Sequence record: PV357172.2
Reading direction: 5' to 3' (one strand)
DNA from: a phage
DNA: 64,000 bases
The notes under the pieces are model-generated. The model had not been told where the DNA came from and did no database searches. It worked only from the letters and a program-made list of their open reading frames with translations. This document shows positions 30,642 through 45,618 of this stretch, one piece after another. Position 1 is the first letter of the stretch. Each line of letters opens with the position of its first letter. The position numbers and the translations under genes were made by a program.

Positions 30642-30857
30642 ATGTTCTCTAAGAAACCACGTTCCGTTACTGAAATCGTTGCTTCCTTTACCACTATCAC
30701 TGATGAGCTTCAAGCTCGTATTGAGGCTGATCAAAAAATTGCGGCGGATATTCAGAAACAGCAGGAAGAACTCGCTTTAAAGTTGGCTGAAACCAACAAG
30801 AGTGAAAAATCTGCCCAAACTATTATGGAAAATATTCTTAAACTGCTGGGCGAGTAA
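30642..30857 (+). CDS. hypothetical protein (71 aa)
   Basis: ORF track; flanked by GC hairpins. Confidence 0.45.
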   Translation: MFSKKPRSVTEIVASFTTITDELQARIEADQKIAADIQKQQEELALKLAETNKSEKSAQTIMENILKLLGE

Positions 30858-30899
30858 TTTAAGTTAGGGGGCGAAAGCCCCTCTTAGTTTGGAGAAACT

Positions 30900-31136
30900 A
30901 TGCGTAATTTTGTAGCAAAGAATGATTTTAACCGTGCTAGCACTCATAAGTCCGCTAGAGATTATACACGACTTTCTAGTCACGAGGTAATGGATACCTG
31001 TTATGAAGAGCTGGAAGGTAGCTGGGATGAATGGCCCGACTTCTCTATGGAAGAGAACTGGGATGTCAGTGAGGATATGCTTCCTGGTTTTAAAGACCCC
31101 AAGAAGTGGGAGTCTATTAAAGAGACAGCTCTTTAA
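30900..31136 (+). CDS. hypothetical protein (78 aa)
   Basis: ORF track; GGAGAAACT RBS. Confidence 0.45.
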   Translation: MRNFVAKNDFNRASTHKSARDYTRLSSHEVMDTCYEELEGSWDEWPDFSMEENWDVSEDMLPGFKDPKKWESIKETAL

Positions 31137-31164
31137 TAGTTTTCTACACAGTAAAGGATAAGTT

Positions 31165-31866
31165 ATGAAAGTAAAACCATTTGGTATGCTAGATATTGAA
31201 TCTCTAGGAACTCCAGGAGATTGTGGTACTACTCATATCGTAATGCCTTCTTTCGCTTTTGTGGCTATGCATGGGGTTGATAAAGACCCTGATCTAGTAT
31301 TTGTTACTTTGGATGTGCAGGATCAGCTTAATTCTGGTGCCAAAGTTACAGCATCTACTCTAGCATTCTGGATGGATCAAGCTAAAAATAGCCCGTCTGC
31401 TATCCACATTATGGAAGCTATGAAGGAACGTAATCCAAAACTGATTGCCTTCCAAAATGGTAAACATCATTGCACTAATAAATTAGGCTCAAACTATGCT
31501 GCCTTCTCTATGGCTCAAAATATTATGGAGTTGGCTCTAGGCGAAAATGCTTTGTATTATGGCAATGGCCCAGAGTTTGATATGACTATCTACTCTGCAA
31601 ATACGTTCCATGCTGGAACCAATGAAGAGGTAGTTCCGTGGAAATTCTGGAATTTGGGCAATGTTCGATCTCTTCGTAATCTCTGGATGCAAGCTGGATA
31701 CAGTTATAAGGCTCTAGAGACCGAAGGTATTAGCTGGGCAATAGCTAAAATGGAGAAGATGGACACTATTCGTTATGGGATATATCCGGTTAAGCACGAC
31801 CCAGCATTCGATGCCTTAGTTGAGAGCTATTGTGTTGCGGCTATGATCGAAAAAATGAAAATTTGA
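31165..31866 (+). CDS. putative DEDDh-family 3'-5' exonuclease
   Basis: Exo I-like MLDIESLG and Exo III-like HDPAFDALVESY motifs. Confidence 0.5.
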   Translation: MKVKPFGMLDIESLGTPGDCGTTHIVMPSFAFVAMHGVDKDPDLVFVTLDVQDQLNSGAKVTASTLAFWMDQAKNSPSAIHIMEAMKERNPKLIAFQNGKHHCTNKLGSNYAAFSMAQNIMELALGENALYYGNGPEFDMTIYSANTFHAGTNEEVVPWKFWNLGNVRSLRNLWMQAGYSYKALETEGISWAIAKMEKMDTIRYGIYPVKHDPAFDALVESYCVAAMIEKMKI

Positions 31867-31936
31867 TTTGCTTCCGGCTCCAAAATTCTGTATAATATAT
31901 TCATAAATTTGAGAAAACAATAAAAGGAAAACAAAT

Positions 31937-32119
31937 ATGCCAGTATCTAAAAATGTTCGTAAAAATGGTAAGAAAGCTACTCGTAATCTGGGTATCCGTC
32001 GTATGGCTGAACGTCAATCAGGTATCCAGAAAATCTTTGATCTGTTAAATCGTGCTAATCCTAAAATTGATAACAGTAAAGATACTGTTCTGCGTACCTT
32101 ACTGGCAATGGGTCTGTAA
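31937..32119 (+). CDS. small basic protein (60 aa)
   Basis: ORF track; promoter module and AAAAGGAAAACAAAT leader upstream. Confidence 0.45.
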   Translation: MPVSKNVRKNGKKATRNLGIRRMAERQSGIQKIFDLLNRANPKIDNSKDTVLRTLLAMGL

Positions 32120-32171
32120 TAGACCAACTTTAAACAAATTCAAATCTTAAACTTCATATAAGGAAGAAACA

Positions 32172-32810
32172 ATGACTACTCGTATTTCTAAAACTCGCGA
32201 TCTGGCAACTATCAAATCTCTGGAAGCTAAAATCCGTAAAGCTACTGAACAACAGCTTCTGATCGCTGTTGGTGAAGGTAAGGATAAAAATAAGGTTGTA
32301 GTTGGCGCTGCAATCGAAGTAGACGATCTGTCTGCTCGTATTAAGGCAGATTTCCAATCTCTCCTAGATATGATGTCCCAGCGTGATCGTATCAAAGCTG
32401 CTCTGATTAAGAGCAATGCGGAAACAGTAGTTGAGATTGGTTCTCGTAAAATGACTGTTGCAGAAGCAATTGAAGCTAAGCGTTCTATGGAGCTTAAAGC
32501 TCAGTTGCTGGCTAATATGCGTAAGCAGTTCCATGCCGCTACGGTTAAGTTTAATACGCAGAAAGCACAGTTTGATGCTAAATATGAGCGTTTGCAGGAT
32601 AGCATGGCTACCCGCGATAAGAAAACTTCCGAAGATGAAGTTAAAATGCAGCTCAACCTGCTGGAACTCAAGAATACTCCATTCTTGATTGATCCGCTGG
32701 AGCTGGAGAAGCTGATCAAGCAGCACGACGAAGAATATCAGGACTTTGCAACTAATGTTGACTTTGTTCTGTCTGAGTCTAATGCCTCTACTTTCATTGA
32801 AGTAGAGTAA
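32172..32810 (+). CDS. coiled-coil protein of unknown function (212 aa)
   Basis: ORF track; strong codon bias; heptad-like sequence. Confidence 0.5.
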   Translation: MTTRISKTRDLATIKSLEAKIRKATEQQLLIAVGEGKDKNKVVVGAAIEVDDLSARIKADFQSLLDMMSQRDRIKAALIKSNAETVVEIGSRKMTVAEAIEAKRSMELKAQLLANMRKQFHAATVKFNTQKAQFDAKYERLQDSMATRDKKTSEDEVKMQLNLLELKNTPFLIDPLELEKLIKQHDEEYQDFATNVDFVLSESNASTFIEVE

Positions 32811-33252
32811 TAATTTAAAAGCTAGTAAATCGGTAGACGAAAGCCCAAGCATCTTACCTCGCAGCAGCGGTTGAAATACGAGGTTAAATAAGACCGCTGA
32901 CCATACTATAAAGTATAATCTATTGGAGATTATGTTTATTACATCAGACATTTAATCTGACACGTAAAAACAAAGAGTCGTTGATATTACCGACACAACT
33001 TCAAAGATCAACATTTAAGTATGAAAGCTGAAAAGTTTAAAGAACTCAAACTTCTAAACTTCTAAAGCTAAAAGATGCAAAGTATTCGTTGATGATTCAA
33101 ACCCTAGATCAAAGGTACATGGCTCATAAGATATGGCCTGTGGCGCCTCTAGGCTGTTTATCGGTTTACTAGTTTCACAATTTAAAAATGTATTTGCTAA
33201 TCTACTAAATTATATGTATAATATATTTTTAAATTGATGAAACGAGGCTATT

Positions 33253-34074
33253 ATGGGTAAATTACAAAAACAAATACTACCACATATAGATTATATTCGA
33301 GAAATTATAGAGTATAATCCTTATACTGGTAAATTATTTTATAAGCCTAATAAATACAAGAATAAAACTTGGCACACCCTATATGCTGGGAGAGAAATAT
33401 GTAGTAAGAACTCTGATGGGTATATCAGAGTTAGTTTGCTCTTAGATAATAAACCCACAATTATTTATGGACACCGAATAGCGTGGTTGCTCCATTATGG
33501 TGAAGAGCCTCCTTATATGATCGACCATATAAATACCATACCGTGGGATAACAGAATTGTTAATCTAAGAGAGACAAATTTTAAGTTAAATAGGATTAAT
33601 ACTAATAAAACCGTAGGTGTAGAACTCCTCCCCGAGGGTTTTGTGTATAGCATTACATTAGGTGGAAAGTTTTTCGTATCTCCTGGCTTCACCACTTTCG
33701 AACAAGCTAAAGGGGAAAGAGAAAAACTAGTAAATGGTTTATGTAATGCAGAAATTGGGAAGCAGACCAATATTCTAATAGACGATGTTAGAGATCTACC
33801 TGAAATGTCCATTATTTGTCGTACAGTTATAGGTGCGCTGGAACTATCAGATATGTTTAGTTTTACTGGTTCCTACCTATTTATGGACTCAGATCTAGGA
33901 GACCCAGAAGTACAAGGAAAAGACTTATTAGATTATATACTCTTTTTAGGTCAAAGACCTTTGAAAGTAGTTCTAGTAACATCCAACCCTGTTGACGCAG
34001 AGTACATGAGAGGTACTCTTACGTCTTATGGTTATCGAGAAAATCCCAATAGGTTAGAATATGACCTATTTTAA
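33253..34074 (+). CDS. HNH endonuclease with C-terminal extension
   Basis: HNH motif YGHRIAWLLHYGEEPPYMIDHINTIPWDNRIVNL in N-terminal half. Confidence 0.65.
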   Translation: MGKLQKQILPHIDYIREIIEYNPYTGKLFYKPNKYKNKTWHTLYAGREICSKNSDGYIRVSLLLDNKPTIIYGHRIAWLLHYGEEPPYMIDHINTIPWDNRIVNLRETNFKLNRINTNKTVGVELLPEGFVYSITLGGKFFVSPGFTTFEQAKGEREKLVNGLCNAEIGKQTNILIDDVRDLPEMSIICRTVIGALELSDMFSFTGSYLFMDSDLGDPEVQGKDLLDYILFLGQRPLKVVLVTSNPVDAEYMRGTLTSYGYRENPNRLEYDLF

Positions 34075-34086
34075 GGAGTAAAAAGA

Positions 34087-34536
34087 ATGAAGGCAGCTTT
34101 GCTTTTAGTAGCTGCCCTTACCTTCAGCTTTAGTAGTCAGGCATCGCACGATGCAAAAGAAATAGATTGCATTGCTAAAAATATCTATTTTGAAAGTCGT
34201 GGTGAGGGCATAAATGGAATGATGGCGATTGCACATGTTACTAAAAACCGTGTAAACTCCGGTAAATTCCCAGATTCCTACTGTAAAGTAGTATATCAGT
34301 CTACCCAGTTCTCTTGGGTATCTAAGAGACCAAAAGTTGATAAAACGGATGAGGCTTGGCAAACCGCTAAGAATTTAGCTAGAGTGATATACTACGTTGA
34401 TTTACCACAAGATCCAACACATGGAGCACTATACTTCCATAGTGGTAAAGATAAACCTTACTGGACAAAGAAGTTTAAGAAAACAACGAAGATTCAAGGC
34501 CATACGTTCTACAAGCCTGCGGTCACTAAAACTTAA
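34087..34536 (+). CDS. secreted SleB-like cell wall hydrolase
   Basis: Signal peptide MKAALLLVAALTFSFSSQA; motif NIYFESRGEG...AIAHVTKNR typical of the SleB/Hydrolase_2 family. Confidence 0.55.
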   Translation: MKAALLLVAALTFSFSSQASHDAKEIDCIAKNIYFESRGEGINGMMAIAHVTKNRVNSGKFPDSYCKVVYQSTQFSWVSKRPKVDKTDEAWQTAKNLARVIYYVDLPQDPTHGALYFHSGKDKPYWTKKFKKTTKIQGHTFYKPAVTKT

Positions 34537-34605
34537 AAATTTATTTGCTTAAATACTTAAACTTCTGTATAATACTTTCATAAATTAATGAGAGGAAGCG
34601 AAATA

Positions 34606-34776
34606 TGAAGAACTTGATCGTCATTGGTGTTAACACTCGCGGTATTCGTACTACGAAAACTATTAAAACTTCTAACGTTGCTGAAATCACTACGAACCCT
34701 AAAAAGTTTGATTTCGCCAAAGTCTCAGCAGTTATGACGGAGCAATCTTTTAACCAAGCGTTAGGACTGAAATAAT
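34606..34776 (+). CDS. small protein (about 56 aa)
   Basis: Below track threshold; ATG at 34606 directly after promoter module and GAGAGGAAG RBS. Confidence 0.4.
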
Positions 34777-35218
34777 GGAAGAGAATATTTTAGATGTTTT
34801 GCGTAGAGCTTTGCAGGATTCTAAGTTTAATGGTTCTGATAAAGAAGTCGCTAAAAGCTATCAGACCATAATCGGGGATCTTCAGCGTATTGATAAAGAT
34901 TTCATCACTTCTGAACAATTTGTGTCTTATCTCAAAGCTCAACTAAAAAGCATTAACCAGATGAAAGCTAAACTTCATGGTCAAGATCTTGATAGTTATA
35001 GCTTGCAGTCCGCTCAGTATGAATACATTCTAAATAAGTGGTTGCAGGAGTATCTGCCTCCTCAGTTATCTGATACTGAGATTCGTAAATACTTTGCAGA
35101 ATTAGTTAAGCTAAACCCTGGAATTACAAAAGGTATGCTGATGAAAGCGATTAAGGAAGAATTTCCTGGGCGTTATGATGGTGGTACTGCTGCTCAGATT
35201 GCTGGCGAATTTAATTAA
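34775..35218 (+). CDS. hypothetical protein (147 aa)
   Basis: ORF track; ATGA start-stop overlap with preceding small ORF. Confidence 0.5.
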   Translation: MEENILDVLRRALQDSKFNGSDKEVAKSYQTIIGDLQRIDKDFITSEQFVSYLKAQLKSINQMKAKLHGQDLDSYSLQSAQYEYILNKWLQEYLPPQLSDTEIRKYFAELVKLNPGITKGMLMKAIKEEFPGRYDGGTAAQIAGEFN

Positions 35219-35478
35219 AAATTTACTTGCTAAATGCTTATAAATTCTGTATAATATATTCATAAATTAGGGAACAGCGAGCCGATTACGCTGAGTGCAG
35301 AATCCCAACCGGAGCGCATTGAATAGAGTCGGTGGGTTAGTTGTAAAACTAGTACACAGGGGGCGGCAATCCCGGTTAGTGGCTAGAACGTGTAAAATGA
35401 GGCGTCTGAAACCTCTCCCCTAAACTCTTCTCTAATTTATAAATAGTGGGGTGTGGAAATCACTTATGTAGTAACACT

Positions 35479-35550
35479 GCCGTCCTAGTATAATTGGTAT
35501 TATCAAGCCGTAACTGGTGGAAGATGTAGGTTCGAATCCTACGGTCGGTA
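35479..35550 (+). tRNA. tRNA-like element (possibly degenerate; anticodon not resolved)
   Basis: T-arm GTAGG-TTCGAAT-CCTAC and a 7-bp acceptor with one mismatch; anticodon stem does not fold cleanly. Confidence 0.3.
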
Positions 35551-36052
35551 AGAACTGGATAACTGATGCTTTTAACGTAAAAGCTTCCGAGGTTAGTTGC
35601 GCACTGCCTAAACCACGCGGTAGTTGGTTCCAGACTAACCAACCAGTCTGCTGAATAGTTTTATTACGATTTAACTATGCCCAGGCTAAAGAAGAACTTT
35701 AGAAGGTATTCTAGGATAGTGAAGTTCTTTCTCCATATCGGAGTAGTTTTTCAAGCTATCCACAAAGTGGGAAATGCTGACATGAGAGATGTCACTAATG
35801 GTGCACAATAGCACAGGTAATTCGCGATAACCCCTGTTGAGTAGCAGCAAAAGGCGGGAAGTCATGACCCCAAGCCTAACCGAGTCCTCAATATACCGCA
35901 GGACATAACCACTAAGTCCCCCTGACTTAAACTGGAAAATAATAGACGTTACTGTATTTTGTCTTGAAATACTTAATGAGTGAGACTTATGACTCTCCCG
36001 GTATCGTCTGTATTTTTAAGAGTTTTTACGAGAGTTCTTAAAAATACTTAAA

Positions 36053-36127
36053 CGGGGTGTAGTCTAAGGGAGAGGCAGGAGTCTTCTAAATTCCTTTATG
36101 CAGGTTCGAATCCTGTCACCTCGGCCA
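36053..36127 (+). tRNA. tRNA-Arg (anticodon TCT)
   Basis: Hand-folded cloverleaf: acceptor CGGGGTG/CACCTCG, anticodon loop CTTCTAA, T-arm GCAGG-TTCGAAT-CCTGT, encoded CCA. Confidence 0.65.
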
Positions 36128-36161
36128 ATTTTATTAACTGTAGCTAAAACAAAGGAAATAT

Positions 36162-37109
36162 ATGTTTAATACTAAAAATATGAAAGAACTGACTTCTGAG
36201 CAGAAAGTAATTCGTACTATTAAACGTTGGGGTATTGGTGCTGTAGTTGGTTTAGCAGGTTTAATCCTAGCTTTTAATTCATATACTGTTGTTCAAGACG
36301 GTACTGTTAAAACCCAGACTTTCCTGGGTAAAGTTGACCCTAGCCCAGTATTACCCGGCTTTCATATTGTAAATCCTTTTGCTTCTTTCGATACTTTTAG
36401 TACTAAAGATATTGCCCTAAAATTAGATAAACTTCAGGTTCCTAGCCAGGATAAGTTTAAATCCACTGTTGACCTGACTGTTATGTTGCAGTTTGATGGT
36501 TCTAAGGCACCAATTAACCGTATTAACGCAGGTACTCAGGATCAGGCGTTAGACAAGTATGTAACTGAAAAATTACTGTCTACTATTCGTGAGTTTGGTA
36601 AGTCTGTACCTAAAGCACAAGATTTGTTTGATGCTAAAATTCAGGCTCAATTGCAAACTGCAATTCAACAGGAAGTTGAAGAGTATGCACGCCCATATGG
36701 TTACACAGTTAAGCAGGTATTCCTTCAGGATATTACTTTGCCACCGGTAATCATGGAACAGGTACAGAATACCAAAGTTCGTGAAGAGCAAGTTAATGCT
36801 GCGAAAGCTGAACTGGCCCGCGTTGAACAAGAAGCGCAGCAAAAGGTTAAACAAGCAGAAGCAGACCGTGAAGCTCGCAACAACCAAGCTATTGCTAATG
36901 AACGTGACGCAGATGCTAAACTGTACGCAGCTAAGAAAGAAGCTGAAGCTAACGCCGCATTGCAACGTACCATTACTCCTGAGATGATTCGCTGGAAGCA
37001 ACTGGAAGTTGAAATGCTTCGTGCTGAAAAATACCAAGGTGGTGTACCGCAAACAGTAGTGGGAACTGGTTACGATGGCCAGATGATCATGGATATGCGT
37101 AATAAGTAA
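36162..37109 (+). CDS. SPFH/band-7 (prohibitin/HflK-like) membrane protein
   Basis: N-terminal TM segment, SPFH-like core, Ala/Glu/Gln-rich coiled-coil tail. Confidence 0.55.
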   Translation: MFNTKNMKELTSEQKVIRTIKRWGIGAVVGLAGLILAFNSYTVVQDGTVKTQTFLGKVDPSPVLPGFHIVNPFASFDTFSTKDIALKLDKLQVPSQDKFKSTVDLTVMLQFDGSKAPINRINAGTQDQALDKYVTEKLLSTIREFGKSVPKAQDLFDAKIQAQLQTAIQQEVEEYARPYGYTVKQVFLQDITLPPVIMEQVQNTKVREEQVNAAKAELARVEQEAQQKVKQAEADREARNNQAIANERDADAKLYAAKKEAEANAALQRTITPEMIRWKQLEVEMLRAEKYQGGVPQTVVGTGYDGQMIMDMRNK

Positions 37110-37145
37110 TATCCGCATGTAATCTCTGAAGTAAGCCCTGTGTTC

Positions 37146-37175
37146 CCTGGAGAGCGCAGGGCTTTTCTGTATTTA
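37146..37175 (+). terminator. rho-independent terminator
   Basis: Hairpin CCCTG-GAGAGCG-CAGGG followed by CTTTTCTGTATTT. Confidence 0.55.
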
Positions 37176-37299
37176 AGGCAAAAGAAAAAGCCCATAAGTT
37201 ATTCAACTAAGGTCTTTAGTATTTAATTCTTTAGAATCATATAATATTATTGCAGCAACAACGTGCTAACCTTAAGTGCCCTGCAATTTTCCTCTAAAA

Positions 37300-37350
37300 A
37301 GTTAAAAAATTCGATTGCTTGAATGCTAAATTCTCTGTATAATATATTTA
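37300..37350 (+). promoter_or_regulatory. sigma70-like strong early promoter
   Basis: TTGCTT at 37315-37320, 17-nt spacer, TGTATAAT ending at 37343. Confidence 0.6.
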
Positions 37351-37373
37351 TAAATTTGAGAGAGGAATCAAAT

Positions 37374-38429
37374 ATGATTAAGACTGGTCTAGTAATTGGT
37401 AAGTTCGCACCATTAACGCGTGGTCATATTAACCTAATAAACACAGCAGCAACTATGTGTGAACGAGTTATTGTTGTAGTTAGTCATGATAATCGTTGGC
37501 TGGATAAGCAGAACACACGTGATCAGGAAGTATTACAGTTAAAGAATCGACTTCGTTGGTTAGAACAAACTTACGCGGATATTGAGCACATTTCGGTAGA
37601 GTACATTATTGAAGATGATATTCCTGAATATCCGAATGGTTGGCCGGAATATGCTAGAATCCTTAATGAAAATTACGGACATTTGCCTGAGATCACCGTT
37701 TTCTCTAGCGAACTAGACTATGATGCAGAATATAAGAAATATCTGCCGAAGTTTGGTCATTATATTGTAGATTCTGATCGGACTCGTGTTCCAATCTCAG
37801 CTACAATGATTCGTAATGATCTTATGAAGTATTGGGAGTTTCTTCCTAGCTTAGTTCGTAAAGATTACGTGCGTAAGGTTGTAATCATTGGGACTGAAAG
37901 CTCGGGAAAGACTACTTTAACAAAATACCTTGCGAAGCTATACAACACTTCGTGGGTAGAAGAATATGGCCGAACGTATTGTGAAGTTGATCTAGTTGGT
38001 AACGAAAATCTACTTACCAGTGAAGATTACAGTAAAATTGCGTTCAGACACAAAGAGCTAGAGTTTGAAGCAGAACGTACTGCAAATAAGATCATGTTTG
38101 TGGATACAAATGCTTTTATTACTGAGTTCTACCACAGACTTTATGAACATAGTAAGAACCCTGTGGTTACAGCAATTGCAAAAGTAGAACATTACGATTT
38201 AGTAATTGTTCTAGCGCCTACTGTCAAGTGGGTAGATGATGATTTACGTATTAACTCCGATCGTTCAATTACTTCTGAACTGTTCGAGCAGATGAAGAAA
38301 GAATTTCCAAATCAGTTCCCTGAAGGGCGTACTGTTTACATCGACTCTCCGGACTACAAAGTTCGTATGGACGAAGCAGTAAACGCAGTAGACTGGCTGA
38401 TTCATCACTTTAACGTTGGAGAGTTTTAA
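37374..38429 (+). CDS. NadR-like bifunctional NMN adenylyltransferase / ribosylnicotinamide kinase
   Basis: N-terminal nucleotidyltransferase motif GKFAPLTRGHINLI; C-terminal P-loop IIGTESSGKTTL. Confidence 0.65.
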   Translation: MIKTGLVIGKFAPLTRGHINLINTAATMCERVIVVVSHDNRWLDKQNTRDQEVLQLKNRLRWLEQTYADIEHISVEYIIEDDIPEYPNGWPEYARILNENYGHLPEITVFSSELDYDAEYKKYLPKFGHYIVDSDRTRVPISATMIRNDLMKYWEFLPSLVRKDYVRKVVIIGTESSGKTTLTKYLAKLYNTSWVEEYGRTYCEVDLVGNENLLTSEDYSKIAFRHKELEFEAERTANKIMFVDTNAFITEFYHRLYEHSKNPVVTAIAKVEHYDLVIVLAPTVKWVDDDLRINSDRSITSELFEQMKKEFPNQFPEGRTVYIDSPDYKVRMDEAVNAVDWLIHHFNVGEF

Positions 38430-38430
38430 T

Positions 38431-39108
38431 ATGACTAACTATCTCGTAAATGACTTTAAAAACTGGAAACCTCTGGAATATCTGTGGCTGCTCATAGCGG
38501 TTGTCTTCATTAGTTTAGCAAACTATAATGGTACAGCTCTAGATTGGGCTACTGCAATAACCAATGTGGTTTGTGTTATTCTGGTTGCAAAAGGACGTGT
38601 TTCCAACTATATTTGGGGCTTAGTGGGTGTTCTTACATATGGTATTACAGCTTTAAACGCAGATCTTTATGGTAACGCTGCACTAAACCTGCTATACTAC
38701 GTTCCTATGCAGTTTTATGGAATGTACTTATGGCATAAAAATAAACCAAGTAATCTGCCAGACGTTCCAACTAAGGTTCTGACTAAAGCTCAGGCTTTAT
38801 TAACTCTTGGGATTCTAGCAGTAGCTACTCTAGGCTATGGCAGCTTCCTCGCTACCACAGCAGATCCGTTCCCAATGCTCGATGCATTTACTGCGGTTGG
38901 TAGTGTAATTGCTATGTGGCTTATGGTCAAGCAGTATGCTGAACAATGGCTAATCTGGATTGCCATTAATATTGGTACTGTATACATTTGGTTTGTAACT
39001 GCTCAGTCTACAGGTGCTTCTTATGCAATCCTAGCAATGTGGCTGGTATTCTTTGGTAACTCTGTACTTGGAGCCTATAAAGGGTACTTTGTACGCGTTA
39101 ACAAATAA
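38431..39108 (+). CDS. PnuC-like nicotinamide riboside transporter
   Basis: Multi-TM protein immediately downstream of NadR-like gene; ATG at 38431 after GGAGAG. Confidence 0.55.
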   Translation: MTNYLVNDFKNWKPLEYLWLLIAVVFISLANYNGTALDWATAITNVVCVILVAKGRVSNYIWGLVGVLTYGITALNADLYGNAALNLLYYVPMQFYGMYLWHKNKPSNLPDVPTKVLTKAQALLTLGILAVATLGYGSFLATTADPFPMLDAFTAVGSVIAMWLMVKQYAEQWLIWIAINIGTVYIWFVTAQSTGASYAILAMWLVFFGNSVLGAYKGYFVRVNK

Positions 39109-40882: not shown

Positions 40883-40966
40883 ACATCGTTGGCAGAATGG
40901 CTATTGTAGCGGTCTGTAAATCCGTGCCCTTCGGGATTGGTGGTTCGAATCTTACACGGCCCGCCA
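40883..40966 (+). tRNA. tRNA-Tyr-like element (GTA anticodon loop), possibly degenerate
   Basis: D-arm and anticodon arm (loop CTGTAAA) fold, variable-arm hairpin GCCC-TTC-GGG, TTCGAAT T-loop, CCA present; T-stem and acceptor pair poorly in my reading. Confidence 0.3.
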
Positions 40967-41068
40967 AATTCTGTGTAGAGTTAAGTAAACCGGTAGCCAA
41001 CCAGCTATCATTGCTGACATCGAATTCAGCCACAGATACCATTTTCATTAATAACTGAGGAAATAGAT

Positions 41069-41257: not shown

Positions 41258-41839
41258 ATGCACGGAATATCCTTACCAATTCCAGGGTTTGAGGAGTACT
41301 TAGTAAGTTTGGATGGGTTAGTATTTAGTATCAAATCAAACAAAATACTAACCCCAATAACCAGTAATTACGGATACTTATCTATACGTCTCCATAAAAA
41401 TGGTCAACAGAGAAATACCGGTGTACATAGGATTTTAGCATGTGCATTTAAGAAATTACCAAGTCTAGACTCTGAACTAGAAGTTGACCATATTAACACA
41501 GACATTACTTATTGGGGTCTTAATAACTTACAAGTGCTCACAAAAGAGCAGCATCTAGAAAAGACTTTAAAAGATAAAGGATTTAGTAAACTAAACCATG
41601 ATAATTGTTGTAAGGATTGTGGTAAAGCTATTTCTTTAAAAGCTGAAAAATGTCAGGAGTGCTCTTCACATAAACCAAAAGATATCTCTATAACTAAAGA
41701 AATAATCGAGGTTACAGTAAGAGAGCTAGGCTGGTCAGGTGCAGGGAGAAAGTTAAGTTATTCAGATAATGGGTTGCGTAAAAGATACACTTCTTTAGGA
41801 GGCAATCCTAAAGAACTTAAAAAGTTAAAGGTACTATAG
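41258..41839 (+). CDS. HNH endonuclease with zinc finger and C-terminal HTH
   Basis: HNH region ELEVDHINTDITYWGLNNLQVLTKEQH; CKDCG...CQEC zinc finger; paralog of 43929-44513. Confidence 0.65.
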   Translation: MHGISLPIPGFEEYLVSLDGLVFSIKSNKILTPITSNYGYLSIRLHKNGQQRNTGVHRILACAFKKLPSLDSELEVDHINTDITYWGLNNLQVLTKEQHLEKTLKDKGFSKLNHDNCCKDCGKAISLKAEKCQECSSHKPKDISITKEIIEVTVRELGWSGAGRKLSYSDNGLRKRYTSLGGNPKELKKLKVL

Positions 41840-41910: not shown

Positions 41911-41984
41911 ACATCCATAGCTCAATTGGTTAGAGCTACCGCCTCTTAAGCGGTAGGTTCTAGGTTCAAGTCCTAGTGGGTGTA
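41911..41984 (+). tRNA. tRNA-Lys (anticodon CTT)
   Basis: Acceptor ACATCCA/TGGGTGT, D-stem GCTC/GAGC, anticodon arm ACCGC-CTCTTAA-GCGGT, T-arm CTAGG-TTCAAGT-CCTAG, CCA. Confidence 0.7.
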
Positions 41985-41987
41985 CCA

Positions 41988-42200
41988 AACATCAGAGCAG
42001 CGTGATGTACTGCAAAGACCCAAAGTCCGGGGTGGACTTCTTGATTCAAAGGAGCAGGCACTAATTATCATTCTAGCGTGGTGGAGAGGGGACACCAGCT
42101 TGCCGAGGGTAGAAGCTCGTTCGATTCGAGTGAAAGAATGGTTCTCGTAAATCCGCACAAGTGATAGCAGGTTCAAGTCCTGCCTAGATTGACTTATTAT
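41988..42200 (+). ncRNA. structured noncoding segment with two orphan T-arm-like hairpins (pseudo-tRNAs or small RNA)
   Basis: GCTCG-TTCGATT-CGAGT and GCAGG-TTCAAGT-CCTGC T-arm-like elements with no pairing acceptor stems found; no credible ORF. Confidence 0.3.
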
Positions 42201-42271
42201 GCGTTCGTAGTTAAAAGGTATAATTTTTGGTTGCCAACCAGAAGTTGAGGGTTCGATTCCCTCCGACCGCA
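42201..42271 (+). tRNA. tRNA-Gly (anticodon GCC)
   Basis: Acceptor GCGTTCG/CGACCGC (one mismatch), anticodon arm TTTGG-TTGCCAA-CCAGA, T-arm GAGGG-TTCGATT-CCCTC, CCA. Confidence 0.65.
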
Positions 42272-42587
42272 CCAAATTTAGGTTTCTGCTTCCTAGAGAA
42301 CGGACTCCTAGATAAACAAGGCGATGAGTTTCCGGCCGGTTCTAGTCGCTGAAAATCCTCCCGACCAGGTAGGTGTAAGTAAATGAAAGTTTACTTATTG
42401 AGTAGGTTCCGATAGACCGGCGGGTCTATTCTGGCATTTAAGAGAGGTCTCGCAAACTTCTTTGTCAGCCGTGGGGTTGGTAGCCTCCAGGTGGCCTACA
42501 CAATAAGTAAATTTATTAAAAATTCATTTGCTATTCTGCTTAATTCTCTGTATAATATATTTTATAAAGTGAGTTAACAAAAATTAA

Positions 42588-42767: not shown

Positions 42768-42931
42768 ATGAAAGTATTTCGATTAGTAGTAAGTGACAAA
42801 CGGTTAGGTAAGAATACATCAAAATCCTTACTTGCTCATTATGGTAAAAATTGGGATGAAGTAATGGCAGAGTTTAATACTAATCACCCTTACTTGAAAG
42901 TTCACTCTATTAAGGAAGTTTATGCTTATTA
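42768..42931 (+). CDS. small protein (about 54 aa)
   Basis: Below track threshold; ATG at 42768 after AGAGGA; overlaps start of next gene. Confidence 0.35.
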
Positions 42932-43395
42932 ACAGGGTGCTTCAAGCTCTAGATCTTCCAGAGCTCTTTACTATTACCGACCCCTTAATACATCGGTATA
43001 TGGAAAAGTATAATGAAATCTCTGGTAAAAAAGGGAAACTAAAATCCTCAGAATTTAAGTTCTGTTATAGAATGGCAGCATTAAACCTCTTAAAGTACAA
43101 GAGGGAGCATAAAATCCCTATAACAGAAGGATTTGTCTATGTAATAGGTAGTCCAGCATGGCCTGGACTATATAAGATAGGTATGACAGTAGATGTGAAT
43201 GAAAGACTGTCTAGTTATCAAACATATTCGCCTTATCGTGATTACAAGTTATACCATTTCAGATTCTCCTCGGACAAGAGAAGAACTGAAAAAGCATTAC
43301 ATAACCTTCTGAAGGACTACAAAGTATCAGGAGAATGGTTTGAAGTACCTCTGTTAGACGCCTTCAAACTATTAGTAGAAAATTTGGATTGCTAA
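42922..43395 (+). CDS. T5orf172/GIY-YIG-like domain protein
   Basis: Motif GFVYVIGSPAWPGLYKIGMT...R...E; AAGGAAG RBS. Confidence 0.5.
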   Translation: MLINRVLQALDLPELFTITDPLIHRYMEKYNEISGKKGKLKSSEFKFCYRMAALNLLKYKREHKIPITEGFVYVIGSPAWPGLYKIGMTVDVNERLSSYQTYSPYRDYKLYHFRFSSDKRRTEKALHNLLKDYKVSGEWFEVPLLDAFKLLVENLDC

Positions 43396-43460: not shown

Positions 43461-43748
43461 CCAATTTCAAGAAAAACTCAGTTGCTTGATGCTTAATTTC
43501 TTGTTATAATATTTATATAAATTGATGAGGAGAAATCCTCATCATAGTTCACTAAGGTATTAGCTCGACCTAGGACTGGCTGCCAAAAAGCACGATCCCT
43601 ACGATTTGGGAGAAGTTCTAGATTAGTCCACTAGATTCAGCGGCAACTGAATAGTGTATCGGTTTTGCGAGATGACGCGGTTCCTTCCGCTCGAAGCGAA
43701 GGTGCTGTAGTTACGCCGAGCTAATAGCCTTAGTAAACTAAGGAATTT

Positions 43749-44605: not shown

Positions 44606-44697
44606 GGTAGGTCAATCCAATGGCTGGCGCTGGACTCCGACTTGAAATCGGTTGATCGTAGTGATACGGTGTAAGGGTTCGATCCCCTTACCTACCT
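44606..44697 (+). tRNA. tRNA-Ser (anticodon TGA), long variable arm
   Basis: Perfect acceptor GGTAGGT/ACCTACC, anticodon loop CTTGAAA, T-arm AAGGG-TTCGATC-CCCTT, CCA. Confidence 0.65.
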
Positions 44698-44955
44698 CCA
44701 AATCTTGAAGTATGCCGGAATCGGTAGACGGGGCTGCCTAAAAGGTTTATAGGGAACATCCACTCCCTGCAACATACCTCATAAAGCGGCTGAGATAAAT
44801 GGTCTATCTCGTGAAGGTTCAAGTCCTTCTGCTTCTTGATACATCTATGGCTCAAAGTGTAACGGTGCTATTTGATGCTCTTGGTAAGACTTCCCCGACA
44901 TGCGTTCGGGAGTAAGCTGCTAAGACTAGAGTAGAAGAGTTTCTGAGAGCCGCCA

Positions 44956-45534: not shown

Positions 45535-45545
45535 CCAAACAATAA

Positions 45546-45618
45546 GCGATTAAGCACACGGGTTGTGCCGCAGGCCTTCCAAGCCCCGCTGAGTAGGGTT
45601 CGATTCCCTCTAGCCGCT
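45546..45618 (+). tRNA. tRNA, anticodon uncertain (possibly TCC, Gly)
   Basis: T-arm with TTCGATT loop, acceptor with one mismatch, CCA; anticodon stem weak in my fold. Confidence 0.4.

What the first reader, a model, noticed from the sequence alone, without database searches (positions are those of the whole stretch)
41988..42200. Orphan T-arm-like hairpins between tRNA-Lys and tRNA-Gly
Two near-consensus T-arm hairpins (GCTCG-TTCGATT-CGAGT and GCAGG-TTCAAGT-CCTGC) lie in a 210-nt ORF-free stretch, but I could find no acceptor stem to complete either tRNA. This could be decayed tRNA genes, a tRNA with a large insertion, or a non-tRNA structured RNA that mimics T-arms.
Basis: seen in the sequence. 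Interest (0 to 1): 0.55.

Follow-up and report, generated by a model that had tools for sequence, protein, structure and literature searches.

The report
Phage T5 tRNA-like RNA2 gene
The two "orphan" T-arm hairpins belong to one gene, the counterpart of phage T5's long-annotated but still function-less "RNA2": a tRNA-shaped RNA whose anticodon loop is replaced by a conserved 55-base, two-hairpin module.

Summary
The window is a T5-like phage. Both hairpins are real (42115-42131 and 42167-42183). They belong to a single 125-nt gene, 42070-42194 on the + strand. This gene is 89.6% identical to T5 rna2, which the T5 and BF23 GenBank records annotate as "RNA2, tRNA-like stable RNA with unknown functions".

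Comparing 30 distinct homologues gives a covariation-supported structure. It has a normal tRNA body: acceptor stem, D arm, 5-nt variable loop and T arm. The anticodon stem (42098-102 / 42158-62) closes a fixed 55-nt insert rather than a 7-nt loop. The insert holds a second T-arm-like hairpin, a purine-rich junction and a hairpin with an anticodon-loop-like CUCGUAA tip.

No tRNA, intron-tRNA, tmRNA or Rfam model fits it. The same module occurs in unrelated T4-like Acinetobacter phages.

Function is unproven. My best guess is a non-decoding tRNA mimic, processed like a tRNA, that engages a tRNA-binding host factor.

The first 81 nt (41988-42068) are a separate conserved spacer module.

As a gene it is already known. 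The architecture and its distribution are modest additions.

The parts
41911..41987 (+). tRNA-Lys(CTT) with encoded CCA. Upstream neighbour; its 3' processing would define the 5' end of the spacer.
   Evidence: ARAGORN; Rfam tRNA 69.6 bits.
41988..42068 (+). 81-nt conserved spacer module, separate from RNA2 and of unknown role. In related phages it always lies between a ...CCA 3' end and the 5' end of the next tRNA(-like) gene.
   Evidence: 95-97.5% identical in Klebsiella T5-like phages, where it sits between a tRNA-like ...ACCA end and tRNA-Phe. Absent in L006, L007 and L014, where the upstream tRNA is followed by RNA2 after about 8 nt. No Rfam hit.
42070..42194 (+). RNA2 gene (ortholog of T5/BF23 rna2), a tRNA-like RNA of about 122-125 nt.
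   Evidence: 89.6% identical to T5 rna2. Annotated as misc_RNA in AY692264, AY543070 and AJ604530. Scores 133.9 bits with covariance model R1.
42070..42076 (+). Acceptor stem, 5' strand (ATTCTAG). Pairs with 42184-42190.
   Evidence: All 7 pairs show compensatory changes; 90.7% of cells paired.
42079..42097 (+). D arm: stem TGGTG / CACCA and G-rich D loop GAGAGGGGA.
   Evidence: All 5 pairs covary (TGGTG/CACCA, TGGTT/AACCA, TGGCT/AGCCA, TGCCG/CGGCA); 86.9% paired.
42098..42102 (+). P3, 5' strand (GCTTG). This is the anticodon-stem analogue and pairs long-range with 42158-42162 (CAAGT).
   Evidence: 97.9% paired, and all 5 pairs show compensatory change. The rival local helix GCTT/AAGC does not covary.
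42103..42157 (+). 55-nt insert that replaces the anticodon loop: J1, H1, J2, H2 and J3.
   Evidence: Length is 54-57 nt in all 19 homologues tabulated. Replacing it in silico with a 7-nt loop makes ARAGORN call a tRNA in 12 of those 19.
42103..42114 (+). J1, a purine-rich junction (CCGAGGGTAGAA) with an invariant GG. Inferred to act as a D-loop-like partner of the H1 T-loop.
   Evidence: GG is invariant in 30 distinct sequences. The tertiary role is inference.
42115..42131 (+).
   Evidence: 98% paired, and 4 of 5 pairs show compensatory change (CTCG/CGAG, CTGG/CCAG, TTGG/CCAA, ATGG/CCAT, ACGG/CCGT).
42132..42137 (+). J2, a near-invariant GAAAGA junction.
42138..42156 (+). H2: ATGG / CCGC stem, possibly extended by U.U and U-R pairs, with a 7-nt tip CTCGTAA. 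The tip is anticodon-loop-like and carries an invariant TAA.
   Evidence: GG/CC is invariant. U.G changes to U-A and A.C to A-U in Acinetobacter phages; the 79-87 pair is U-G or U-A in 26 of 30. RNAalifold instead pairs the CC with the J1 GG, so H2 is the least certain helix.
42158..42162 (+). P3, 3' strand (CAAGT).
42163..42166 (+). Variable-loop analogue. GATA together with T42162 gives a 5-nt class I variable loop.
   Evidence: Read from the alignment.
42167..42183 (+).
   Evidence: 98% paired, and 3 of 5 pairs show compensatory change.
42184..42194 (+). Acceptor stem 3' strand CTAGATT, discriminator G42191, then ACT. No CCA is encoded here; GCCA is encoded in the UTK0010 and OSY-STA variants.
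42201..42274 (+). tRNA-Gly(GCC), the downstream neighbour. The order is the same as in BF23.
42402..42502 (+). Homologue of T5 'RNAIV' (stable RNA of unknown function). Probably the last RNA of the same transcription unit.
   Evidence: 97% identical to T5 RNAIV; annotated.
42528..42556 (+). Sigma-70-type promoter (TTGCTA-17-TATAAT), the counterpart of T5 promoter P13a. It starts the next unit, so RNA2 has no promoter of its own.
   Evidence: Position matches P13a in T5.

Best explanation
The interval contains the ortholog of bacteriophage T5 gene rna2 (RNA2).

Shown here:
- It is a single 122-125-nt RNA gene on the + strand, inside the phage's tRNA cluster and without a promoter of its own.
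- It has a canonical tRNA body: 7-bp acceptor stem, D arm with a G-rich loop, 5-nt variable loop and a T arm with a consensus T-loop.
- The anticodon stem is closed by a strictly sized 55-nt three-way-junction module instead of a 7-nt anticodon loop.
- That module holds a second T-arm-like hairpin (H1), two purine-rich junctions (GAGGG..AG and GAAAGA) and a hairpin (H2) tipped by C-N-C-R-U-A-A.
- The insert is the most conserved part. The acceptor stem drifts freely, and it is weak or absent in Acinetobacter phages.

Inferred:
- The RNA is cut out of a polycistronic early transcript by the host tRNA-processing enzymes: RNase P at 42070, then 3' trimming and possibly CCA addition after G42191.
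- The tRNA body serves mainly as a processing and stability scaffold.
- The insert is the working part. H1 probably docks on the J1 GG to form a second 'elbow', and H2 displays an anticodon-loop-like tip about one helical turn further out than in a tRNA.
- The RNA therefore cannot decode. It acts as a non-consumable tRNA mimic that binds a conserved host tRNA-binding factor, most plausibly a tRNA-targeting defence nuclease or a tRNA-processing or modification enzyme.
- This would make it an accessory, host-range type function.
For: Identity:
- 89.6% identity over 124 nt to T5 rna2.
- The T5 st0, T5 and BF23 records annotate it as 'rna2 / RNA2, tRNA-like (stable) RNA with unknown functions'.
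- The gene order rna2 - tRNA-Gly(GCC) - RNAIV - P13a is the same as in BF23.

Structure:
- 92.1% of cells are paired against 74.5% in shuffles (0 of 500 shuffles reach the observed value).
- Slid controls give 27-46% paired.
- 25 of 32 pairs show compensatory change.
- RNAalifold independently recovers the acceptor stem, D arm, P3, H1 and T arm.

tRNA body:
- Model R1 aligns ordinary tRNAs end to end at 13-35 bits with the insert deleted.
- With the insert swapped for a 7-nt loop, ARAGORN calls a tRNA in 12 of 19 homologues, including the window.

Insert as the functional part:
- Its length is fixed at 54-57 nt, and its junctions and loops are near-invariant.
- Acceptor stems are completely replaced (ATTCTAG, TACGGGG, GGGTACT, GACTTTG, TACTGAC).
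- In Acinetobacter phage 133 the RNA is flanked directly by two tRNAs and has no stem of its own.

Spread across unrelated phages:
- It occurs in Demerecviridae and in Straboviridae/Twarogvirinae of Acinetobacter.
- No protein gene is shared between those loci and the window.

Co-transcription:
- There is no promoter between the upstream genes and RNA2. The next promoter lies after RNAIV.

Accessory role:
- The viable T5Mos variant lacks 30661-38625, which spans rna2 at 32959-33083.
- Phage tRNAs are documented counter-measures or decoys against tRNA-cleaving defences (PMC11464382; PMC13096335).
Against: - No expression, end-mapping, aminoacylation or binding data were available here. 'Stable RNA' rests only on the depositors' annotation.
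- The decoy or mimic function is inference. No partner was identified. There is no conserved neighbouring protein and no significant complementarity or similarity to E. coli rRNA.
- The T5 fragment that rescues infection from PARIS (31885-32870) excludes rna2, so RNA2 lies outside the mapped PARIS suppressor fragment.
- H2 is supported only by one-sided changes, and RNAalifold prefers another partner for its CC.
- The alignment used for pair counts was fitted to the model and is dominated by closely related T5-like sequences.
- Single-sequence folding is no better than shuffled sequence (z = 0.05).
Confidence: 0.6

Rival explanations
1. Intron-containing tRNA gene. The 55 nt would be removed after transcription, leaving a functional decoding tRNA.
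For: The insert sits exactly where tRNA introns sit, inside the anticodon loop, and the rest is a complete tRNA body. The first insert bases C-K-A-G-G loosely resemble a Leu(NAG)-type anticodon loop with G37 (my reading).
Against: - 55 nt is far too small for a self-splicing group I or group II intron, and no intron family is hit in Rfam.
- ARAGORN's intron mode finds nothing.
- From established knowledge, bacteria lack the archaeal/eukaryal tRNA splicing endonuclease.
- T5 and BF23 annotate the full 125 nt as the RNA.
- The insert, not the exons, is the best-conserved part, and no U33 or consistent anticodon would result.
- The acceptor stem is dispensable in Acinetobacter phages.
Confidence: 0.04
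2. Decayed tRNA gene(s): evolutionary debris of the tRNA cluster with no function of its own.
For: The cluster does contain degenerate tRNA-like pieces. Examples are T5 rna3 (40969-41041) and a Tyr-like remnant at about 40885-40966 with a broken T stem. The region is dispensable in the laboratory.
Against: - About 420 phage records keep it.
- 25 of 32 pairs show compensatory substitutions.
- The insert length is fixed and its loops are near-invariant.
- The module has moved between unrelated phage families while staying about 85% identical.
Confidence: 0.03
3. A miniature tmRNA-like or ribosome-directed mimic. It would be charged at the 3' end and enter stalled or terminating ribosomes, with the invariant UAA of the H2 loop presented as a stop codon.
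For: - It combines a tRNA-like body with an internal module, as tmRNA does.
- UAA is invariant in all 30 distinct sequences.
- The Serratia phage Kamaji copy has G3.U70 plus A73, the alanine identity set.
- A CCA end is encoded in the UTK0010 and OSY-STA variants.
- In Acinetobacter phage ZZ1 a 76-aa RF-1-domain ORF lies next to the RNA.
- A YqeY-like tRNA-related protein lies beside it in L004.
Against: - ARAGORN tmRNA mode finds nothing at default thresholds and only a spurious chimera at lowered ones. There is no Rfam tmRNA hit.
- G3.U70 and the discriminator base are not conserved (G, A or U).
- The acceptor stem is lost in some members.
- The would-be reading frame runs through covarying helix H1.
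- The RF-1 and YqeY neighbours are not consistent across the family.
Confidence: 0.07
4. A DNA-level element. The T-arm-like sequences would serve as target or immunity sites for the homing endonucleases that populate phage tRNA clusters, or as recombination hot-spots, rather than as RNA.
For: HNH/NUMOD4 and T5orf172/GIY-YIG-type ORFs flank the locus (41258-41839 and 42922-43395). T4 SegB recognises an 11-bp T-stem-loop motif in tRNA genes (PMC2330249).
Against: Compensatory base-pair changes, including G-U pairs that make sense only on the + strand RNA, are the signature of selection on RNA structure. All matches lie on the transcribed strand of the tRNA cluster.
Confidence: 0.03
5. A small protein-coding gene, as some GenBank records annotate ('hypothetical protein' over the homologous stretch).
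For: Mechanical ORFs of 56 aa (+) and 100 aa (-) overlap the interval. Several deposited genomes carry a CDS here.
Against: There are no Pfam or PHROG matches. The minus-strand ORF runs through tRNA-Gly. The upstream half of the + ORF is absent from T5 and BF23. The substitution pattern is that of paired helices.
Confidence: 0.01

Closest known systems
Bacteriophage T5 / BF23 rna2 ('RNA2, tRNA-like stable RNA with unknown functions'; AY543070 32959-33083, AY692264 32962-33086, AJ604530 5701-5825)
   Same: Same gene: 89.6% identity, same length, same strand and same place in the tRNA cluster, with the same downstream neighbours as in BF23.
   Different: The window copy has a U.U mismatch in the acceptor stem and G-C instead of U-A at the fifth D-stem pair. 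It is preceded by tRNA-Lys(CTT) plus an 81-nt spacer, where T5 has an ORF.
Canonical bacterial/phage tRNA (Rfam RF00005)
   Same: Acceptor stem, D arm, anticodon-stem analogue, 5-nt variable loop, T arm with a UUCRANY loop and a discriminator base. It lies in a tRNA operon, so RNase P-type processing is expected.
   Different: There is no 7-nt anticodon loop and no anticodon; a 55-nt insert takes its place. C occupies position 8. No CCA is encoded in this copy. It scores 12.5 bits against a threshold of 29 and is not called by ARAGORN.
Phage T4 species 1 and species 2 RNAs (rnaC, rnaD)
   Same: Small stable RNAs of unknown function, encoded at the end of a phage tRNA cluster and partly tRNA-like. 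The rnaC 3' part scores 18.4 bits with my model, mainly through its T arm. [quoted passage not shown]
   Different: No detectable sequence homology and no equivalent of the 55-nt insert. This is an analogue, not a homologue.
tmRNA (SsrA)
   Same: A tRNA-like domain combined with an internal non-tRNA module.
   Different: tmRNA has no D stem or anticodon stem, carries a tag reading frame and pseudoknots, and always has G3.U70. None of these is conserved here. No ARAGORN or Rfam match.
Engineered 'tRNA scaffold' for recombinant RNA expression (Ponchon and Dardel approach; from my own knowledge, alluded to in PMC3401473)
   Same: A foreign structured RNA replaces the anticodon loop of a tRNA, so that the chimera is processed and stabilised by the cell's tRNA machinery. 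This is the architecture seen here.
   Different: That one is man-made. RNA2 would be a natural example, and its insert is itself built from tRNA-like parts.
Bacterial Y RNA YrlA (tRNA-like domain attached to a Ro/Rsr-binding stem; from my own knowledge)
   Same: A non-coding RNA that mimics tRNA arms and is handled by tRNA enzymes. It is present in Salmonella, a host of this phage group.
   Different: The topology is opposite: in YrlA the ends lie in the Ro-binding stem, not in the acceptor stem. No Rfam match at E <= 10.

Membership tests
T5/BF23 RNA2 (rna2) | Sequence homology to the annotated T5 rna2 over its full length. | tested here: met
   89.6% identity over rna2 positions 1-124 of 125. 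Scores 133.9 bits with model R1 against 138.8 for T5 itself.
T5/BF23 RNA2 (rna2) | Position in the early-region tRNA cluster, upstream of RNAIV and promoter P13a, on the same strand as the tRNAs. | tested here: met
T5/BF23 RNA2 (rna2) | Accumulates as a discrete stable RNA in infected cells. | not testable with these tools
   Only the depositors' annotation 'stable RNA' is available.
Canonical tRNA | Cloverleaf arms (acceptor, D, anticodon stem, T) with covariation. | tested here: met
   ARAGORN calls a tRNA once the insert is replaced by 7 nt.
Canonical tRNA | 7-nt anticodon loop with U33 and an anticodon. | tested here: not met
   A 55-nt insert lies between the anticodon-stem strands.
Canonical tRNA | Recognised by tRNA detectors (Rfam RF00005 at or above 29 bits; ARAGORN). 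| tested here: not met
   12.5 bits, E = 7. No call by ARAGORN.
Canonical tRNA | Aminoacylatable CCA 3' end. | tested here: inconclusive
   The window has G-ACT and T5 has G-ACA, while the UTK0010 and OSY-STA variants have G-CCA. Post-transcriptional CCA addition cannot be tested here.
Intron-containing tRNA | A recognisable self-splicing (group I) or bulge-helix-bulge intron in the anticodon loop. | tested here: not met
   No Rfam intron hit. ARAGORN -i finds none at default thresholds. The insert is only 55 nt.
tmRNA | tRNA-like domain with G3.U70, a resume codon with tag ORF, and pseudoknots; detected by ARAGORN or Rfam. | tested here: not met
   G3.U70 occurs only in Kamaji.
T4 rnaC / rnaD | Sequence or structural homology to T4 species 1 or species 2 RNA. 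| tested here: not met
   Only an 18.4-bit partial hit to the rnaC T-arm region. No similarity seen by eye.
tRNA pseudogene | Relaxed constraint: decay of pairing, variable length and patchy retention. | tested here: not met

The most novel reading that the evidence does not exclude
RNA2 is a natural 'tRNA-scaffolded' effector RNA. It would be a mobile 55-nt module, built from a second T-arm/elbow and an anticodon-loop-like hairpin. The module rides on a disposable tRNA body, is exchanged between unrelated phage families, and works as an RNA decoy or inhibitor of a conserved host tRNA-recognising factor, for example a tRNA-cleaving defence nuclease. That would make it an RNA-based counter-defence of a new kind.
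Probability: 0.25. Interest if true: 0.75.

Novelty: already known. Interest (0 to 1): 0.4.

Why it matters
As a gene this is not new.

What remains open is what it does. The analysis here sharpens that question in five ways:
- It gives a covariation-backed structure: a tRNA body with a 55-nt module in place of the anticodon loop.
- It shows that the module, not the tRNA body, is under the strongest constraint.
- It shows that the same module occurs in T4-like Acinetobacter phages.
- It shows that no Rfam family covers it.
- It notes that the RNA lies within a deletion carried by a viable T5 variant.

Phage tRNAs have recently been shown to neutralise tRNA-cleaving defences such as PARIS, retron-Eco7 and Septu. 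A conserved non-decoding tRNA mimic in the same clusters is therefore a concrete and testable candidate for an RNA-based counter-defence or for manipulation of tRNA metabolism.

It also matters for annotation. Many deposited genomes leave the locus blank or label it 'hypothetical protein'.

Tried and rejected
- Standard tRNA or tmRNA: ARAGORN found nothing. Intron mode found nothing, and lowered thresholds gave only spurious chimeras.
- Rfam, at E <= 1 over 13 kb and at E <= 10 over the interval alone: nothing relevant.
- Single-sequence folding was uninformative: z = 0.94 for the 213 nt and z = 0.05 for RNA2. Its local helix GCUU/AAGC fails covariation.
- My first by-eye model, an anticodon-like arm with a 9-11-nt loop, was dropped in favour of the long-range P3 helix after comparing homologues.
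- Hammerhead-like three-way junction, mimicry of the GTPase-centre or sarcin-ricin loop, and a Ro-binding stem were all considered by eye. They were rejected because the shared words are not conserved across the family.
- Antisense or mimicry relation to E. coli 16S, 23S or 5S rRNA: no signal above shuffles.
- Antisense target within the window: none.
- Conserved protein partner: YqeY-like (L004), weak GatB_Yqey (L024) and RF-1 domain (ZZ1/L037) ORFs lie near some copies. They are not shared across the family or with the window.
- Metagenome and bacterial-genome scans with the core motif added only phage-like contigs.
- Literature searches found no paper on the function of RNA2.
- Protein-coding reading: no family match.
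Full report
WHAT THE WINDOW IS

The 900 bases around the finding match T5-like phages (Demerecviridae) at up to 99% identity; the best match is Salmonella phage MET_P1_179_112. ARAGORN finds 19 tRNA genes, all on the + strand between 36 and 47 kb. The flagged interval lies between tRNA-Lys(CTT), 41911-41987, and tRNA-Gly(GCC), 42201-42274.

CHECK OF THE OBSERVATION

Both hairpins exist as described: GCTCG-TTCGATT-CGAGT at 42115-42131 and GCAGG-TTCAAGT-CCTGC at 42167-42183. The T-loop word GTTCRANTC occurs 21 times in the window against 3.1 expected. All 21 are on the + strand, and 20 of them lie in the tRNA region.

The interval is not strictly ORF-free. There are mechanical ORFs of 56 aa (+) and 100 aa (-), but neither matches Pfam or PHROGs.

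The statement that no acceptor stem exists is wrong. CTAGATT (42184-90) follows the second T stem directly and pairs with ATTCTAG (42070-76), with one U.U mismatch.

IDENTITY

- A blastn search of the 213 bases finds 504 phage records. In T5 st0 (AY692264) the match falls on a misc_RNA called 'rna2'.
- The T5 reference record AY543070 annotates 32959-33083 as 'RNA2, tRNA-like stable RNA with unknown functions'. The BF23 tRNA-region record AJ604530 says 'tRNA-like RNA with unknown functions'.
- Window 42069-42193 is 89.6% identical to T5 rna2.
- The order rna2 - tRNA-Gly(GCC) - RNAIV - promoter P13a - tRNA-Pro - tRNA-fMet is the same as in BF23.
- Every other T5 'misc_RNA' also has a counterpart in the window: rna3 at 40969-41041, RNAIV at 42402-42502, RNA2H at 43558-43729 and RNA1 at 44704-44848.

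The finding is therefore a rediscovery of a known, annotated gene whose function has never been established.

THE INTERVAL IS COMPOSITE

Only query positions 79-213 belong to RNA2. Positions 1-81 (41988-42068) match a different set of phages. These are Klebsiella T5-like phages at 95-97.5% identity, where the element lies between a tRNA-like RNA ending in ACCA and tRNA-Phe.

In other relatives (L006, L007, L014) the element is absent and the upstream tRNA is followed by RNA2 after about 8 nt. It always starts right after a CCA end and stops right before the next tRNA-type 5' end. It is a separate conserved spacer module, possibly released as its own small RNA. There is too little variation to test a structure.

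STRUCTURE OF RNA2

I collected homologues from five sources:
- T5-like phages;
- two Serratia phages;
- a Klebsiella Sugarlandvirus;
- two metagenomic contigs (L004, L010);
- T4-like Acinetobacter phages: 133, Acj9, ZZ1, AB1I1T, AB2I2, and the contigs L024 and L037.

Comparing them by eye overturned my first model, a local anticodon-like hairpin. GCTTG (42098-102) does not pair with the nearby GAAGC. It pairs with CAAGT (42158-62), 55 nt downstream. This helix (P3) changes in a compensatory way in every lineage:
- GCTTG/CAAGT (window)
- ACTTG/CAAGT (T5)
- GCCTC/GAGGT
- CCCAT/ATGGG
- GACCA/TGGTC
- ACTCCG/CGGAGT
- GTGCCG/CGGCGC
- TCCCTA/TAGGGA
- GCGCTG/CAGTGC

A covariance model built on this structure (R1) finds 39 copies at 88-142 bits in the loci held. 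On the resulting alignment of 30 distinct sequences:
- 92.1% of cells are standard pairs, against 74.5% in shuffles (0 of 500 shuffles reach the observed value);
- slid controls give 27-46%;
- 25 of 32 pairs show a change on both sides.

Percent of cells paired, by helix:

| Helix | Cells paired |
|---|---|
| Acceptor stem | 90.7% |
| D arm | 86.9% |
| P3 | 97.9% |
| H1 | 98% |
| T arm | 98% |
| H2 | 78% |

The local alternative helix does not covary (score 0.163 against 0.136 in shuffles; 55 of 500 shuffles reach it). RNAalifold, which predicts on its own, recovers the acceptor stem, D arm, P3, H1 and T arm. However, it pairs the invariant CC of H2 with the invariant GG of J1, so H2 is the weakest element.

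Two caveats apply. The alignment was fitted to the model, and T5-like sequences dominate it.

WHAT THE STRUCTURE MEANS

Outside the insert the RNA is a textbook class I tRNA:
- a 7-bp acceptor stem;
- two linker bases;
- a D stem with a G-rich loop;
- a 26-44-type pair plus a 4-bp anticodon stem;
- a 5-nt variable loop;
- a T arm with G53-C61 and a UUCRAGU loop;
- a discriminator base.

Ordinary tRNAs align end to end with model R1 at 13-35 bits, with the insert deleted. When I replace the insert in silico with a neutral 7-nt loop, ARAGORN at default settings calls a tRNA over the whole scaffold in 12 of 19 homologues, including the window, T5 and BF23.

The native sequence is not called by ARAGORN, with or without introns. 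The Rfam tRNA model reaches only 12.5 bits.

The insert is 54-57 nt in the 19 homologues tabulated. It consists of:
- J1, (C/G)C(G/U)AGGG(U/C)AGAA, with an invariant GG;
- H1, a 5-bp stem with a consensus T-loop UUCGAUU;
- J2, GAAAGA;
- H2, (A)UGG...CC(G/A)(C/U);
- one A.

H2 can be extended by U.U and U-R pairs to leave a 7-nt tip, C-N-C-R-U-A-A. In T5-like phages the tip is CUCGUAA, the shape of an anticodon loop: C32, U33, CGU, A37, A38. The 'U33' position is A, C or G in other lineages, so the tip is not a decoding loop.

Junctions and loops of the insert are nearly invariant. The acceptor stem, by contrast, is replaced wholesale between lineages. It is AT-rich and weak, or absent, in the Acinetobacter phages. 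In phage 133 the RNA is simply bracketed by tRNA-Gly and tRNA-Cys.

Selection therefore acts mainly on the insert and the elbow, not on an aminoacylatable end.

EXPRESSION CONTEXT

No promoter-like site lies between the upstream genes and RNA2. The only strong site nearby is TTGCTA-17-TATAAT at 42528-42556, the counterpart of T5 P13a, after RNAIV. RNA2 must therefore be excised from a polycistronic transcript. Its tRNA body is what RNase P and the 3' trimming enzymes recognise; this step is inference from established tRNA biology.

MECHANISM

Shown here are the gene, its conservation, its secondary structure and the absence of an anticodon loop.

Inferred is the following. The tRNA body is a processing and stability scaffold, the same trick used in engineered 'tRNA scaffolds'. 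The insert is the working part. H1 plus the J1 GG probably forms a second T-loop/D-loop-like elbow, and H2 presents an anticodon-loop-like tip too far out to reach a codon.

The most likely role is a non-decoding tRNA mimic that occupies a conserved host tRNA-binding factor. The reasons are:
- the module is shared by phages of enterobacteria and Acinetobacter that have no neighbouring protein in common with the window, so the partner should be a conserved host component;
- rna2 lies within the deletion carried by the viable T5Mos variant (30661-38625, against rna2 at 32959-33083), as expected for an accessory function;
- phage tRNAs in these same clusters are proven counter-measures to tRNA-cleaving defences (PARIS, retron-Eco7, Septu).

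Against the specific PARIS case, the rescuing T5 fragment 31885-32870 excludes rna2. I found no complementarity or similarity to E. coli rRNA above shuffles and no antisense target in the window.

I put about 0.95 on the identity and architecture, and about 0.25-0.3 on the decoy or mimic function.

RIVALS

- Spliced intron-tRNA: the insert is too small, there is no intron signature, no anticodon would result, and the full length is annotated as the RNA.
- Decayed pseudogene: contradicted by covariation and by the fixed insert length.
- Mini-tmRNA or ribosome mimic: the invariant UAA, the occasional G3.U70 or CCA, and the RF-1-domain and YqeY-like neighbours in some phages are intriguing. They are not conserved across the family, and the acceptor stem is dispensable.
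- DNA-level homing-endonuclease site: does not explain strand-specific compensatory pairs.
- Protein-coding gene: no support.

COMPARISON WITH WHAT IS KNOWN, AND NOVELTY

It is a member of the T5 RNA2 family by homology and synteny. Expression could not be tested here.

It is not a tRNA: the anticodon-loop and detector criteria fail. It is not a tmRNA, not an intron-tRNA, and not homologous to T4 rnaC or rnaD, which are the nearest analogues. No Rfam family covers it.

The gene is already known. The following appear to be additions, though older non-indexed literature may contain a fold:
- the explicit architecture;
- the demonstration that the insert is the conserved unit;
- its presence in Acinetobacter Straboviridae;
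- the separate 81-nt spacer module.

VERDICT

This is a real feature, correctly spotted but only partly interpreted. It is already annotated in the type phage, and its function is still open. Interest is moderate to low as a discovery. It would be higher as a lead if the tRNA-scaffolded effector idea holds.

Noticed in passing
window 41988-42068: An 81-nt element, 95-100% conserved. It is an indel relative to close relatives and recurs in Klebsiella T5-like phages at a different place. It always lies exactly between a ...CCA end and the next tRNA 5' end. It may be a small RNA released by tRNA processing, or a mobile spacer.
   Followed up: partly
window 42275-42401: About 125 nt between tRNA-Gly and the RNAIV homologue, unannotated in BF23 as well. 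It contains repeated CCTAGA words and a GAGTTTCCGGCCGG motif. A related motif, GATTTCCGGCCG, appears at the corresponding place in Klebsiella phage L046.
   Followed up: no
window 40969-41041, 42402-42502, 43558-43729, 44704-44848: Counterparts of the other T5 'misc_RNA' genes of unknown function: rna3 (100% identical), RNAIV (97%), RNA2H (98%) and RNA1 (85%). By eye, RNA1 also looks like a tRNA body with a Leu/Tyr-type D arm and a large internal insert.
   Followed up: partly
window ~40885-40966: Where T5 has tRNA-Asn just upstream of rna3, the window has a different, Tyr-like (GTA) type II tRNA-like sequence with a broken T stem. Neither ARAGORN nor Rfam calls it.
   Followed up: partly
window 35479-35553, 44606-44700, 45545-45618: tRNA-like hits that ARAGORN does not call. 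They score 35.5 bits with Rfam tRNA, 37.6 bits with tRNA-Sec (probably the second tRNA-Ser of T5) and 23.3 bits with tRNA-Sec. Each carries a T-loop word.
   Followed up: no
window 41258-41839 and 42922-43395: Homing-endonuclease-type ORFs flank the RNA2 block: NUMOD4 + HNH_3, and T5orf172/MUG113 (GIY-YIG-like).
   Followed up: partly
L046 407-500 (Klebsiella phage vB_Kpn13-P1): An uncalled tRNA-like RNA of about 90 nt. Its acceptor stem GGGACTT/AAGTTCC includes G3.U70, followed by A73 and an encoded CCA (the alanine identity set). It has an atypical interior.
   Followed up: no
L024 7053-7127 and L037 6751-6823; L018 528-758 / L037 2800-3027: The T4-like Acinetobacter-type contigs that carry the RNA2-like module also encode a CUA-anticodon (amber-suppressor type) tRNA, which ARAGORN labels 'Pyl'. 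In L024 it abuts the RNA2-like gene. ZZ1 and L037 have a 76-aa RF-1-domain ORF immediately downstream of the RNA.
   Followed up: partly
L004 3005-3508; L024 6128-6583 (-): A YqeY-like protein (Pfam, 1e-15) lies about 200 nt upstream of the RNA2-like gene in L004. L004 has no tRNA genes within 10 kb. A weak GatB_Yqey-like ORF lies near the copy in L024. A 34%-identical YqeY-like fragment also exists about 8 kb upstream of rna2 in the T5-like locus L006, but not in the window.
   Followed up: partly
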